Shown in pieces: positions 36,201-42,200 of a DNA stretch of 64,000 nucleotides. The notes under the pieces were generated by a model. That model ran no database searches. It was not told where the DNA came from and saw nothing but the letters and a program-made list of their open reading frames with translations. The stretch is from the NCBI RefSeq assembly GCF_035084215.1, contig NC_090343.1, forward strand, positions 12,648,001-12,712,000, given 5' to 3'. The first letter of the stretch is position 1. Each line of letters starts with the position of its first letter. The DNA is from Heptranchias perlo. Taxonomy: Eukaryota. The position numbers were made by a program, and so were the translations under genes.

Positions 36201-39200
36201 CAGCAGAATTGCCACCAGCTGTAGCTGAGGTTGAGGAGACCCCTGTTGGGCTTGTGATGCCTGCAGAGGAGTCTTTAATACTACAATCCAAGTTGGAGTT
36301 TGTTAAAGATGTTAGCCCCATGTCATCGGAGGGAGAGGTCAGCAATTGCAAAAGTTTGGTGTGGTTTTTGTTCTCATGGAATCTTCTCTGCCCCTCTATG
36401 TTGTCACTGCTACCAAAAAGGTTCAGATTTCCTTCCTTAATGTTCTTCTGTTCACCATGAGCATCTCTGTTTTCTAGGCGACCCACTGTGCTCTCGACTT
36501 GGTTGTGCTCCCCAAAAAGGCCAGGAGAATCTTTTAGATCCATGCTACCCATCTTCGATTGCTGGGTCAAGCTCACATTTGGGGAAGTCTCCATTTTTTG
36601 ACCAGGTGATGATAGTGATGACAGGAGTGAAACTCCTAATCCTTCACTAATGGCTTGAAGTGCATTAAGGGAACTACTAGAGAAGGTGCTGCTTCCTGTG
36701 CTGTTTATATGTCCCACCGGTGACTGCATGCCACCAGCTGAAGAATATTGGCTGGGCCCCATTCGTGGACTTACCCGATGCCTCGGTGAAAGCATTAGAT
36801 TCTGCTGGGTTGTGTTCACCCCAGGGCTATTGTGTGGGGGGCTGTTCATGGTGAGTGTATAGCTGTTCCCCTGTAAGCTAGGTGCCTGCATACTAGACCC
36901 ATGGTTCATTGTACCAGAAGTCCCACTTCTTGCACCAAACCTTCCCATTTGCCCCATAGAACTGGGGTCATTCAAGCTATTTGCACCATAGGTCATATTG
37001 TTTTGCACTGGCATTCCCTGTCCTGATGCCCCTGATGGCATGCTCATATTGCCCGAAGAGTTTGTGCTTGCTGTGGCAAGTGTCTTCATCATTTCTTGCC
37101 CCATGTTGGTTTGGTTCAATCTGCAACCGTTCTGTTCCCTATAAGTAGAACAAGATTATTGGGTGTCAGAGTCAGCATTAGCAATTTAGACCTTCCTTCA
37201 CTGTGAAGGAAAAAGCAGGCAGAATTGCATCTTTCACAATTATAATACTTTATTCAATAAAAATCATAATTCCCAGTCATTAAAAATCTGGACACTTCTA
37301 CCTTACCCAAAGTCTCCATATCTCTTCAGTTCTATTAATATCTATGACTTTCAAAGCTACCACAAACCAAAAGTAAGAAATATCATTCTTACAGTTGCTG
37401 ACTTAGAGAACAAACTGTGAGCTAGTATAGTAACCATCAACTTAGTTGAAGCTTCAAAGAAGGATCCAACAGCTGAAAAGCACAAATCACTATGGACTTT
37501 ATGGTGTTGGCACTCAAAGTAAAATGTTGTACAACTAAGAATGGGCAGAAGTAAAACACAATATACTCTAGTGCAACTTGGATTAGCACAACTACAAGCT
37601 CTACTCAGCTTGTTTGGAATCTCTGTAACTGATGCCCAATTTCCAGAAAACTCAAAATGTTCTTCAAGAGAAGACAAAGGCAGAAGCCCAATATTCACTA
37701 AATAGTTTTAAAAATAAACTGACCCAAAGCATGAGCTGCAATGTTGCAGAACTAGTCTTTCTGTATTGTTTTGCTGCTTGACTGACAAAAAATCTGAAAT
37801 AACTTTGCAGATCTAACTGGTCCACACCTGCTCAGACTCTGCAGTGGCAGAATCTGTTCTGTATTGCAGAATCACAAAAAACAGACTCTGAATTTTGATC
37901 CTAAATTGAATTTCCAACTGAGAAACTGATATTGGATGACTTCCCAAACTGCAGGCTCTGGGCCTCAGTTAGGCCTTTGTTGGAGGTGATGCGTTCATTC
38001 AAGAAGTGAAGGACAGCAGAAAGCAAAGTCAACCTGTGCAAATCTCAAGAGCCACCTGGTGGTCTGCCAAAAAGAGTGGAATTCACACAGACATGGTAAT
38101 TCTCCCACCTTCTCAGTCGTTAAATGGTGTATTGTGGGGGTTGGGGGGGGGGGAGGGGGGAGTAGTATAAAGACAATAGAATACACAATGTGTCTTTGTG
38201 AATCTACTCCTTGTTTGAATATATGGAGCAGCTGATGGGCAGCTACATTACAAGCATTATATAAGAGCTGCACTTCTAAGATATAACTAAACAAAGCTGT
38301 TTTCTGTCAAATAGTTACAGATTTCAACACATTCCTGTACCTTTGCAGCAGGTGTGTAGAGCCAAATCCAAGGCTCTCATTGTTGCCTGGGTTGCGTAAA
38401 AGCTTGGTCTTGGTTTGTGCAGTGACTATAGTGCCATCCGACAAGGAAAATCGGTAAAGGGGACTCTCGGCTTGGCCTTGCATCAAGGCTAAATAGGAGG
38501 GAAAGAAAGTACGTTACTATGCAAACAAGCAGACACCATCAATTAAAGTTTATAGAACAGAACCTACTGGGTCGATATGCCAATTACATTAAGTAACTGC
38601 AGAGCCAGTAAAGCAATAGAACGTTTCAAAATCCATACATACTGTTTGCTAAGTACACAATTTCCATTGTATTGAGAAAACATTTGTTGAGAAGACAAAG
38701 AGAAGAATAAGACTAAGGGGGGAGTAGATAAACCATAACCACATATACCTGGGCTACAGAGAGAATAAACTGCCTTAAAATTGGGAAGCTACAGCCATCT
38801 GCTTGGTCTCGCCAATATTTACACTATTTAAATTCACTATTTTTGTTTTAAAAAATTACCAAAAGAGTAGCACACTCTGAAATGGCTGGTCCTGGTGGCC
38901 TTTGACATACTTTAGGAACAGTTAAAGAATTAGGTGAGCTCATTATGCCAGTCACTACAAACTATATGCTAATCTAAGCAACCATCTCAGACATAGGAAG
39001 GGTTGGAACACATACACATCCATGCATGCCTATCATGTTGGCTCAGTTAAAAAAGTACGGAATCTTACAACACCAGGTTATAGTCCAACTGTTTTATTTG
39101 AAAATCACAAGCTTTCGGAGGCTTTCTCCTTCGTCAGGTGAGCGAGTGTGGGATTCCATGGAAGGTTGCCGCATTTACAGTCAGAGAACAATACCTGGTG

Positions 39201-42200
39201 ATTACAGATAATCTTTCCAACTGCCCGTTGTCAAGGCAATCAAAGTGTTCAGACAGAGTGATGTTACCTACAGGACCACCGAATACACAAACGGCCGGAA
39301 CACAAAAGAGAGAGAGGGAGAGAAACATCCGAAAGGAAGAGAAAGACAGAGAATGACCCGTTGTGTTAAAAACAGATTACTTTTTTTCGCTGGTGGGGTT
39401 ACGTGTAGCGTGACATGAACCCAAGATCCCGGTTGAGGCCGTCCTCATGGGTACGGAACTTGGCTATCAATTTCTGTTCGATGATTTTGCAGGCCTTCGA
39501 GACACACGACGATGCAAAATCGAACAGAAATTGATAGCCAAGTTCCGCACCCATGAGAACGGCCTCAACCGGGATCTTGGGTTCATGTCACGCTACACGT
39601 AACCCCACCAGCGAAAAAAAGTAATCTGTTTTTAACACAACGGGTCATTCTCTGTCTTTCTCTTCCTTTCGGATGTTTCTCTCCCTCTCTCTCTTTTGTG
39701 TTCCGGCCGTTTGTGTATTCAGTAGTCCTGTAGGTAACATCACTCTGTCTGAACGCTTTGATTGCCTTGACAACGGGCAGTTGGAAAGATTATCTGTAAT
39801 CACCAGGTATTGTTCTCTGACTATAAATGCGGCAACCTTCCATGGAATCCCACACTCGCTCACCTGACGAAGGAGAAAGCCTCCGAAAGCTTGTGATTTT
39901 CAAATAAAACAGTTGGACTATAACCTGGTGTTGTAAGATTCCTTACATTTGTCAACCCCAGTCCATCACCGGCATCTCCACATCTTAAAAAAGTATGGCT
40001 TGGGGGAAAGGAGAGGAAGGGAATTGGCATTGATTAATGAACTATAATAAATAGTCATATGGACAAGCCCTGAAAACCAGTATGATTTTGCTACATGCCA
40101 GTGAAAGCAGGAAAGAGGTTGTCAGAGCATTTTGCTCCTATGCACCCTTTAACATTTCAGATCTATTTTTCTATTTTTAAATTGACCAGTGGGTAAGTAG
40201 TTTATAAAACTGCATTGTCTTTGAGCTAAACTGATGTATTTATTTTTAATAAAACTGTGAGGACTTATCCTATTCTTTCACCTTCCCTACCCTTGCCCGC
40301 CCTGCATCACTCAAATCTCAATTCTACTCAAGAATGCCAGTACTTGTGCAAATACTGCTCACAATTCATCAATTATTGCTCATTTCTAGGCCAAAACAAT
40401 GATGAAGCACTTCACCTTCATGGTAATGTCTTTTCAGTGACCATGGCTGCCCATCATTATGGTGAAAGAACCTCTGAATGCATCTTCTTACAAGATCTTC
40501 CCAGCCTGGCTTCATCGAGGCACGCAGGGAACTTGGATCTATTGAAGTAATCTTGCCTGAAAACAGGAAAGAAGAGGGGAAAAGAACTTCACATAAAATC
40601 AGCTCAATGTCTTTTCACTGTTAGAACGGAAAAGAATAAAGTAAATGAAAGATTGTGGCAAACAATAACAGCTTGCTTTTAACATAGGAAACAGGTCTAA
40701 TTCAGAGCTAGCTGAAATTCTGGAAATGACAACACCTTTCAACCGTCGATAAGATAGCTTGTTAAAATGGTCAGAGCATCTTAATTCACATTCAAAGAGA
40801 TTGATAAAGATTGACCTAGTCATTTGAATCATGTGGCCAGATCAATAATAATGATAGCGGCATCATCGACTTGGACTTTTGTGCCTTTCAGGCAACAAAA
40901 TGTCACAAAGTTATGTATTTTGGGTGGGGGGGGGGGCGGAGGCGGGGGGGCGGGCGGGAGGTCATGTGCCCTGAGCAGAATGGAGTGAAGTTAGGGAAAA
41001 TGACTGAAGGTGAAAACAGGCAGTGTTGACGATGAACTGGATGTGGGGTCTGAAACTCAGCTCATGGTAAAACAGAACACCAACGCTGTGCACCATCAGG
41101 TTTGGCTTGAATAATTAGCCAGGAAAGGGGATGAAATTGGTGCCTAAAATGCTCTGGTGGGAGATGAGAGCCTTCAATCTTCTGAGCCTCATTTGGCTGA
41201 AAAAAATGCTCTTGGTACTCGCTTTGATCTAATCAATTGCCAGTTTTGGATGATGTGGGTCTCACCTCCAGAATGAATGCCTGGACTCCAGAGAGTCAGA
41301 AACAAGGAGTTTCAACATCAAAAAAACTCAAAAGAAAATTTAGAATGAGGTATGCCATTCAAAAATATCAAAACAATGAAAATATAAGAGAAAATGGGGG
41401 GAAAGGAAAAGAGTAAGCAAAGTATTTAGAACACTATAAAGTGTTCTTAAGTTGTTATTTTATGAGCACAGGATTAATCTTGGTGGCAAAATTATGACTA
41501 ACATCCAGATAGTATTTTTAAAAGGGTAAAATTAGACTTTGTTTCAATGTTACAGTATACAAGGTGATATTTTTTAAATGGCTAGCCCAGGAAGCATGGA
41601 ATTCCCCAGAGCTTCCAGCTGTCAAAGATTTAAAATAATGGCTTTAAAATAAATAAAGCCTTTTTACAAAACTAATTTAATGATACAGGAAATAAATTAG
41701 AAGTTTTACAGCTTGAGTAGATCTTTTATATTAATCGGAGTGGCTTCTCTGAGTGCTCACCTGTCATATCATGTCTTGTGACAAAGCTTTCAGGACTGGA
41801 GGGGAATTGTGATCTCTCCACTGGTGTAATCCGTCTTGCTACACAAATCATACAGGACTGCAGATCTGAAACAGCAAAACCAGCCTTTTCATTTCCAAGT
41901 TAGAATGGTTAACTCATTTTAAAGAAACAACGAAATGACTCTTTACAATAGATAATATTTCACAGTATTTCTCTCCCTGACACACGACAGCTACAGGTTT
42001 CAACACAATGGAAAATGGCAGCTGACCTAATCACCCCACTGAGACAGCAGACCATTATTGCTGGTGTAATAAAACTAATTAGTGGACAAATTGACTAATG
42101 GGAATGAGCATAAATCTAGATCAAAAACTGGGCCAACCCCATCCACATTCAAATGTGTTTGACATCACAAACAGTTAAGGAAGCTTCCAGGTTTCACCTT

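What the first reader, a model, noticed from the sequence alone, without database searches (positions are those of the whole stretch)
39047..39998. Young Penelope-like insertion with an inverted pLTR pair, 3' tail, TSD and two intact hammerhead ribozymes inside an NCOA3 intron
Seen: two ~430-bp arms (39059-39491 and 39513-39942) are reverse complements, differing at about half a dozen positions plus a 3-nt indel, with a ~21-nt spacer. The right arm carries a GIY-YIG endonuclease C-terminus (..[26 protein letters not shown]) and then a hammerhead. A 42-nt tail lies on the right only. A 14-bp direct repeat with one mismatch (ttaaaaaagta[c/t]gg) flanks the whole unit. Known: Penelope-like elements insert with inverted or tandem pLTRs plus a short tail and carry minimal type I hammerheads. 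Inference: a single recent retrotransposition from a possibly still active family.
Basis: partly seen in the sequence, partly recalled or inferred. Interest (0 to 1): 0.72.

Follow-up and report, generated by a model that had tools for sequence, protein, structure and literature searches.

The report
Inverted Neptune-type Penelope stub, shark intron
This is a real 938-base mirror-image fragment of a Penelope-type jumping gene in an intron of a shark's NCOA3 gene, one of thousands of related copies; it was likely built from two separately started DNA copies of the element's RNA, its layout is already known, and it is likely old and inactive rather than recent.

Summary
The structure is real. 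Two 5'-truncated copies of a Penelope-like element's 3' end lie head to head between 14-bp direct repeats (13/14 identical), in an intron of shark NCOA3 that an RNA-type contig shows spliced. Four other organisms have the empty site. The family has RT, a GIY-YIG-type endonuclease and the CX4CxxC linker (Neptune/Nematis type), with one intact 891-aa ORF. Corrections: the "spacer" is endonuclease-coding sequence; the tail ends at the ORF's ATG; the two hammerheads lie on opposite strands and are predicted to be paired away. No evidence of recent activity: arms differ 1.4%, nearest copies 97%, no empty allele seen in the one individual. Family-wide, head-to-head insertions carry exactly one tailed end (40/40; 18/19 in a pre-stated test), and either arm can be the longer, favouring two separately primed cDNAs. 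Peculiar to this locus: its fold-back centre recurs at exactly one other place, a chimeric insertion on another contig. The layout is in print (PMC3846280, PMC8557442, PMC4209133, PMC11167929), and this scan has noted it many times on other DNA (153 findings, at least 15 genomes). New member of a known kind; modest interest.

The parts
39047..39060 (+). Left target-site duplication copy TTAAAAAAGTACGG (last 2-3 nt also match the element end)
   Evidence: one copy's worth of sequence at the empty site in run X10
39059..39490 (-). Tail-less ('short-end') arm: endonuclease C-terminus, 3' UTR, hammerhead; ends 42-44 nt before the ORF ATG (family mode -37); lacks 17 nt next to the centre compared with L099
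39105..39141 (-). Minimal type I hammerhead, the copy that is sense in NCOA3 pre-mRNA
39399..39490 (-). Endonuclease C-terminal codons and stop of the left arm
39491..39496 (.). Fold-back centre AGGCCT; with its adjacent derived alleles found at exactly 2 places in G000 (here and L099/L248)
39492..39984 (+). Tailed arm: last 36 codons of the RT-EN ORF, 3' UTR, hammerhead, 5' leader up to the base before the ORF ATG
39492..39602 (+). GIY-YIG endonuclease C-terminus (conserved Glu helix and GLN) and stop; one codon missing (3-nt deletion seen at 70 places against 448 full-length)
39860..39896 (+). Minimal type I hammerhead: stem I UCAC/GUGA, CUGACGA, extra A, stem II GGAG/CUCC, GAAA, palindromic AAGCUU; predicted cut after 39892
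   Evidence: architecture as in PMC4209133
39932..39947 (+). 6-bp hairpin UGUAAG/CUUACA; its 3' base is the family's modal short end (-37)
   Evidence: one pair with a change on both sides; broken in 2 of 14 sequences
39943..39984 (+). One-sided tail, 42 nt here (about 37-39 in the family), ending just before the ATG
39985..39998 (+). Right target-site duplication copy TTAAAAAAGTATGG
38489..40415 (-). Host GT-AG intron of NCOA3, between two PAS-domain exons

Best explanation
This is a promoter-side-truncated, non-coding footprint of a Neptune-type Penelope-like retrotransposon: two copies of the element's 3' end joined head to head between target-site repeats in an NCOA3 intron, likely made when the element's protein cut both DNA strands about 12-14 bp apart and started one cDNA from each cut end, and likely inactive and old. 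Shown: the anatomy, the family's RT-endonuclease ORF, the empty site elsewhere, and the rule that one end lies at the ORF ATG and the other about 37 nt upstream. Inferred: the endonuclease makes a staggered double cut. One 3'-OH primes reverse transcription at the ATG site (tailed arm), the other at the foot of a small hairpin near -37 (short arm; here -42 to -44, helped by an 8/10 match between target and RNA). The RNA is uncleaved by its hammerhead, since both arms run through the cut site. The two cDNAs stop independently and are joined at their 3' ends, here at the self-complementary GGCC; gap filling gives the TSD. Later events, inferred: a 17-nt deletion on the left of the centre (making the apparent 21-nt spacer), a few substitutions, and exchange of the centre with a second locus (L099). 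In NCOA3 pre-mRNA the arms are predicted to form a 430-bp hairpin that masks the one sense hammerhead, so the intron is spliced and the element has no evident function.
For: Identity: 891-aa ORF, RVT_1 above cut-off; GIY-YIG clusters, score 0.96-0.97, family on 31-34% of members; full-length homologs at 40-45% carry Pfam GIY-YIG above cut-off; 112 of 113 aligned homologs have the CX2-5CxxC linker. Insertion. Two start sites: arm ends are bimodal; by TSD the tailed end has mode +1 and the short end mode -37, matching the two RT start sites that bound the tail in vitro (PMC11167929). One of each: 40 of 40; 18 of 19 testable in 20 pairs picked by position after the prediction was written. Two separate cDNAs: of 33 simple junctions the tailed arm reaches further in 15, the short arm in 14, same start in 4, and fold-back copying of one cDNA cannot give both. 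The 3-nt deletion often sits on one arm only. Mostly one donor: arms share rare non-CpG alleles at 1.76/kb against 0.09/kb in random pairs. Ribozyme masked; splicing.
Against: The mechanism rests on genomic footprints; no biochemistry exists for this family. In vitro, PAc showed no difference in start site between the two strands (PMC11167929), so the one-of-each rule is not explained by that work. One prospective pair was short/short without a TSD (L202). The first set of 40 was found partly with a tail-bearing query. Shared rare alleles could also come from conversion between arms after insertion. The symmetric centre in L099 and 4 of 33 same-start junctions also fit self-priming. The age is crude: the arms are mosaic against L099, so their 6 differences are not a clean clock, and only one individual was available. 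Pfam GIY-YIG does not hit this family's own endonuclease, and the single-sequence fold was unusable.
Confidence: 0.8

Rival explanations
1. One cDNA folded back and primed on itself, and the endonuclease later trimmed the second arm about 37 nt short (self-priming plus EN-mediated resolution, as suggested in PMC3846280 and PMC8557442).
For: The ancestral centre here appears to be a symmetric fold at AGGCCT (L099). 4 of 33 junctions have the same start on both arms. Arms share rare alleles.
Against: 29 of 33 junctions are asymmetric, and in 14 the tail-less arm is the longer; a copy of a tail-less strand cannot gain the tail. The 3-nt deletion is often on one arm only. 2 of 40 insertions have arms of different subfamilies inside one TSD (L033 arms 87%; L099 arms 93%).
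Confidence: 0.12
2. A recent insertion from a family that is still moving.
For: Arms 98.6% alike; hammerheads unmutated; 1 of 5 complete ORF copies examined is intact; element sequence is in an RNA-type run (RNA status is a guess and read-through is likely).
Against: No near-identical copies: best 97%, minimum 1.43% among 2464 pairs, 97-98% for the intact copy; but only 40 of about 3200 candidates were scored per search. No branch at either junction in 2 own DNA runs. At the epaulette-shark rate (PMC10587355, another species), 0.7% per arm is about 10 million generations, 1.8-110 million across both intervals.
Confidence: 0.1
3. The whole palindrome, or its centre, was copied from an existing inverted donor (RNA read-through or ectopic gene conversion), so its centre was not made at this landing.
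For: The centre plus the adjacent derived alleles occur at exactly two loci, on different contigs with different TSDs. A rare allele of both window arms occurs at 4 places genome-wide, one being L099's short arm.
Against: L099 is the chimeric one: its outer parts belong to another subfamily, while the window's arms are of one subfamily. That makes the window (or a lost sibling) the more likely source. No further copy of the symmetric centre was found.
Confidence: 0.15
4. Assembly artefact (palindromic chimeric read).
For: No listed contig spans the whole element.
Against: The arms differ at 6 sites plus an indel; TSD present; both outer junctions are in short-read contigs; the centre recurs at an independent locus; the layout recurs family-wide.
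Confidence: 0.01

Closest known systems
EN+ PLE insertion unit with inverted 5'-truncated copy, one-sided 30-40 bp tail and TSD (Pen2a_Av, Pen2_Av of Adineta vaga, PMC3846280; general scheme in PMC8557442 Fig. 2; passages read)
   Same: Head-to-head inverted terminal copies, tail on one end only, TSD.
   Different: TSD 12-14 bp (8-10 in those rotifer cases); no internal full ORF; the tail ends at the ATG rather than inside the ORF; CX4CxxC linker.
PAc, Poseidon of Anolis carolinensis (PMC11167929; main text read)
   Same: Two RT start sites bounding the tail; both strands cut and extended; uncleaved hammerhead RNA used as template.
   Different: PAc starts 111-118 nt inside the ORF and its hammerhead overlaps the ATG; here the ends map to about -37 and +1 and the hammerhead cut site is 92 nt upstream of the ATG. 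PAc showed no strand preference of start sites, whereas these insertions carry one of each.
Minimal type I hammerheads of metazoan PLEs (PMC4209133; results and discussion read)
   Same: Short stem I, extra nucleotide before stem II, G10.1-C11.1, palindromic 15-16 region; pairs on opposite strands 100-700 bp apart were already reported.
   Different: Stem II only 4-5 bp; 50,673 exact pattern matches in this genome against about 4,000 and 9,000 reported for coelacanth and Xenopus with another descriptor.
L1 twin priming (recalled; seen here only in the search listing)
   Same: Both target strands prime cDNA; inverted junction; TSD.
   Different: L1 joins non-overlapping RNA segments and keeps a poly(A) end; here both arms copy the same RNA segment from two fixed internal sites.

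Membership tests
EN+ Penelope-like element | Single ORF with RT and C-terminal GIY-YIG endonuclease | tested here: met
   891-aa ORF at L163:6029-8704 ending in the window's peptide; RVT_1 37.8 bits, cut-off 29.6. Endonuclease by Atlas clusters and alignment to Pfam-GIY-YIG-positive homologs; Pfam itself misses this family's domain.
EN+ Penelope-like element | pLTR / partial-tandem organisation (terminal repeat runs into the ORF start) | tested here: met
   In 18 of 30 loci the tail sequence continues into the ORF ATG; pLTR-ORF-pLTR copies.
EN+ Penelope-like element | Inverted truncated copy, one-sided 30-40 bp tail, TSD | tested here: met
EN+ Penelope-like element | Telomerase-related RT by phylogeny | not tested
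   No labelled reference set was fetched.
Neptune (or Nematis) clade | CX2-5CxxC motif in the RT-EN linker (criterion from PMC8557442) | tested here: met
   CHGNLCKTC in the family; 112 of 113 aligned homologs have it.
Neptune (or Nematis) clade | RT tree placement with named Neptune elements | not tested
   No named PLE references among the homologs; Neptune is preferred over Nematis only because Neptune is reported in vertebrates.
Minimal type I hammerhead | Core CUGANGA / GAAA, stems I and II, palindromic stem III region | tested here: met
   Sequence; stem II fifth pair changes on both sides across subfamilies but is unpaired in this copy. Stem I and core were fixed by the search pattern, so they carry no covariation evidence.
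Minimal type I hammerhead | Match to an Rfam hammerhead model | tested here: not met
   No hammerhead family at E up to 10 in 37000-42000; the models expect a helix III that minimal motifs lack (inference).
Minimal type I hammerhead | Self-cleavage | not testable with these tools
   Needs an assay; predicted to be masked in this locus.
Non-LTR retrozyme | Tandem non-coding repeats with same-strand hammerheads | tested here: not met
   Inverted, not tandem; carries ORF end.
Active / polymorphic insertion | Empty allele in the species; near-identical copies | tested here: inconclusive
   None seen, but one individual only and the top 40 candidates per search.

The most novel reading that the evidence does not exclude
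PLE integration is an obligatory two-site twin priming: a dimeric RT-endonuclease starts one cut strand at the AUG and the other at a hairpin foot about 37 nt upstream, sometimes from two different RNAs (possibly held together by the hammerhead's AAGCUU palindrome), and finished palindromes such as this intronic one can hand their fold-back centre on to other insertions (window to L099).
Probability: 0.3. Interest if true: 0.55.

Novelty: new member of a known kind. Interest (0 to 1): 0.27.

Why it matters
As a locus it matters little: one inactive stub among thousands, in an intron that is spliced. As a data point it helps an open question, namely how PLEs make inverted ends and finish integration. 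The family gives a sharp, testable rule (one tailed and one tail-less end per insertion, either arm longer) that links the two in vitro start sites of PMC11167929 to the two cut strands. The centre shared with a chimeric second insertion warns that arm divergence is not a safe clock for dating such insertions. The insertion is also a usable presence/absence marker among sharks.

Tried and rejected
Rfam scan: no hammerhead; the MIR856 and other miRNA hits reflect the long hairpin only and lie below gathering scores. Pfam on the window's 62-aa frames and on the family's endonuclease: nothing; PDB sequence search of the endonuclease: nothing. Single-sequence structure prediction: pLDDT 35, not used, no fold search run. 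Folding z-scores of the hammerhead and tail are not significant (-0.4 to -0.8); unconstrained co-folding did not give the dimer form. No run on record as RNA was listed; X5 is a guessed RNA run, used only for the exon join. Read depth over the element is not a copy number. A joint for an empty allele in the own runs could not be read from the joint table (15 of 401 shown); the unbroken flank contigs were used instead. No leader/follower bias between the arms (15 vs 14). One RNA versus two: unresolved (discordant shared polymorphisms 1.7/kb against 5.2/kb in controls; 7 of 30 pairs have two or more). The 3-nt deletion first looked tail-arm-specific (7 of 7), but that was query bias; it is on both arm types. 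One TSD (19 bp, C22_45827000) is a mis-call; one search gives 13 bp. In the six-pair check the complex L173 and the tail-to-tail L168 were left out, and the L178/L179 pair was read by eye only.
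Full report
Observation. The inverted arms, the 21 nt between them, the 42-nt right-only tail and the 14-bp direct repeat with one mismatch are at the stated places. The arms differ by six transitions and a 3-nt indel. The repeat copies start 938 bp apart. Among 40 head-to-head family insertions with both ends in view, 39 have a TSD score of 9 or more; 150 controls with mismatched flanks reach at most 8. 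Lengths cluster at 12-14 bp.

Host. The flanking exons encode PAS-domain sequence on the minus strand. The next large exon matches shark and ray NCOA3(-like) proteins at 85-93%, and the other listed hits are almost all named NCOA3. A contig of a guessed-RNA run of the same sample joins 40416-40559 directly to 38340-38488; the intron has GT-AG ends. The element lies about 420 and 560 nt from the splice sites.

It is an insertion. Contigs from four other organisms (4 of 4 runs laid, three studies) carry both flanks at about 85-90% identity without the element. Run X10 has 15 nt between the aligned flanks, exactly the number expected for one TSD copy; the other three have 4 nt more than expected over a gap of about 45 nt. 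In the window's own DNA runs X1 and X3 the left flank contig continues to 39080-39081 and the right one starts at 39964-39966, so both junctions are confirmed and no branch to an empty allele is seen. Contigs show presence, not absence, and only one individual was listed.

Family. The arm has 3247 candidates in the 3.25-Gb genome; the 40 scored are 96-97% identical. Upstream, copies continue into an ORF. One of five complete ORF copies examined is uninterrupted, 891 aa, ending in the window's peptide. It has RVT_1 above cut-off. Its C-terminal domain has no Pfam or PDB hit, but Atlas clusters with GIY-YIG on 31-34% of members score 0.96-0.97, and full-length homologs at 40-45% identity carry Pfam GIY-YIG above cut-off. 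The window's 36 codons align with the conserved Glu helix and GLN of those domains. The linker has CX4CxxC, which PMC8557442 (passages) gives for Neptune and Nematis; no tree was built. The 'spacer' is family ORF sequence, and the tail is the leader up to the base before the ATG. Arms elsewhere range from under 100 nt to about 3 kb, so 'inverted pLTR pair' is better read as two 5'-truncated copies.

Hammerheads. Both copies read UCAC-CUGACGA-A-GGAG-loop-CUCC-GAAAGCUU-GUGA, the minimal type I form of PMC4209133 (results and discussion read). That paper also reports pairs on opposite strands 100-700 bp apart and no cleavage of a single motif. Rfam does not detect them. Across 14 copies of several subfamilies one stem II pair changes on both sides; the core and stem I were fixed by my pattern. 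The pattern has 50,673 exact matches in the genome, control 0; the window's exact 58-mer has 1,813. Any transcript holds one sense motif and its antisense copy, and folding of the NCOA3-strand RNA pairs all 46 positions checked with the other arm. On that strand the antisense arm is transcribed first (sequence). Cleavage here is therefore unlikely (inference).

Ends and mechanism. Arm ends are bimodal. Placed by TSD, the tailed end has its mode at +1 of the ATG and the short end at -37, the 3' base of the hairpin UGUAAG/CUUACA. That hairpin has one compensated pair but is broken in 2 of 14 sequences. All 40 head-to-head insertions have one end of each kind; that set was found partly with a tail-bearing query. 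I therefore wrote the prediction down and fetched 20 pairs chosen by position only: 18 had one of each with a 12-17 bp TSD, one was short/short without a TSD, and one ran on into an ORF and could not be scored. Of 33 simple junctions the tailed arm reaches further in 15, the short arm in 14, and 4 start at the same base; most junctions show a few bases of overlap or a few untemplated bases. Fold-back copying of one cDNA cannot produce both asymmetries, so two separately primed cDNAs are the simplest reading. This fits PMC11167929 (main text read), where the protein cuts and extends both strands, starts at two sites that bound the tail, uses uncleaved RNA and is predicted to dimerise; that work saw no strand preference of start sites. 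Arms of one insertion share rare alleles 20 times more often than random pairs (1.76 vs 0.09 per kb; 17 of 30 pairs vs 5% of 1988 controls), so they mostly come from one donor, though conversion between arms could add to this. Two insertions have arms of different subfamilies within one TSD. One RNA or two remains open. In this copy the short end lies at -42 to -44, with the best target-to-RNA match of the set (8 of 10).

A twist at this locus. The centre AGGCCT, with the adjacent derived alleles and the 3-nt deletion on the tailed arm, occurs at exactly two places in the genome: here and L099 on contig C34, which has other flanks and another TSD. L099 has a symmetric centre; the window lacks 17 nt on its left side, which creates the apparent spacer. 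L099's short arm carries the window's rare alleles in its inner part (one allele occurs at only 4 places), while its outer parts and most of its tailed arm belong to another subfamily. So a tract of roughly 370-490 nt including the centre has passed between the loci, most simply from the window or a lost sibling into L099, by ectopic conversion or template switching (inference). Some arm differences are also cross-shared with L099, so the direction is not settled. This confirms that the junction is real and shows that arm divergence is not a clean clock.

Age. The arms differ by 1.4% (95% interval 0.5-3.1%) against 10-15% between the flanks and the other organisms; the family mean between arms is 2.3%. 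With the epaulette-shark rate of 7e-10 per generation (PMC10587355, passages; another species) this is about 10 million generations, 1.8-110 million across both intervals. No near-identical copies turned up, but only the top 40 candidates were scored per search, so a younger subfamily is not excluded.

Novelty. The layout is described in PMC3846280 and PMC8557442 (passages), the ribozyme in PMC4209133, the two start sites in PMC11167929. A bioRxiv preprint (10.64898/2026.07.22.740005, passages) reports Neptune and Poseidon PLEs across five vertebrate classes, with one cartilaginous fish sampled; PMC6155905 (passages) adds nothing on sharks. Searches listed no paper that, by title, abstract start or the passages read, states a strict one-tail rule or counts shark hammerheads; most subscription papers and all supplements were not seen. 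This scan has noted the same layout and the twin-priming reading before on other DNA: 153 findings in at least 15 genomes, and 89 notes in this genome. These are unchecked notes and were seen after my reading was formed. Verdict: a real, textbook example; new member of a known kind; interest 0.27.

Noticed in passing
G000, genome-wide: 50,673 exact matches to one minimal-hammerhead pattern (control 0), several subfamilies; far above the 4,000 and 9,000 reported for coelacanth and Xenopus with another descriptor.
   Followed up: partly
L197-L213 (G000:C1): 12 of 20 position-picked pairs are tiny fold-backs whose two hammerhead cores start 9-39 nt apart, so both arms stop just upstream of the hammerhead, perhaps at the RNA 5' end.
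   Followed up: partly
L163:6029-8704 (G000:C22, 45.83 Mb): Uninterrupted 891-aa RT-endonuclease ORF with flanking pLTRs of differing subfamilies, followed by a tandem repeat; nearest copies 97-98%.
   Followed up: partly
L099 (G000:C34:25436349-25437302): Chimeric inverted insertion that shares the window's centre; its arms are 93% alike and both have lost the hammerhead's GAAA G.
   Followed up: partly
L033 (G000:C20:43343380-43346697): TSD-bounded insertion (13 bp, perfect) whose two arms are only 87% alike, suggesting two templates or a tandem donor with two pLTR types.
   Followed up: no
window 54132-57095 (-), 46433-47635 (+), 2241-4325 (+), 14403-14807 (+): LINE-type ORFs, one of 987 aa, in NCOA3 introns; they look CR1/L2-like (recalled, not tested).
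   Followed up: no
window about 8200-8680: Tandem repeat giving repetitive open frames.
   Followed up: no
P0138: A public shark gene model named epn2 isoform includes this family's RT sequence at 95% identity: exonisation or annotation error.
   Followed up: no
window 38370: A/G difference in runs X3 and X5 but not X1, probably a heterozygous site in the exon; the four other organisms have G.
   Followed up: no
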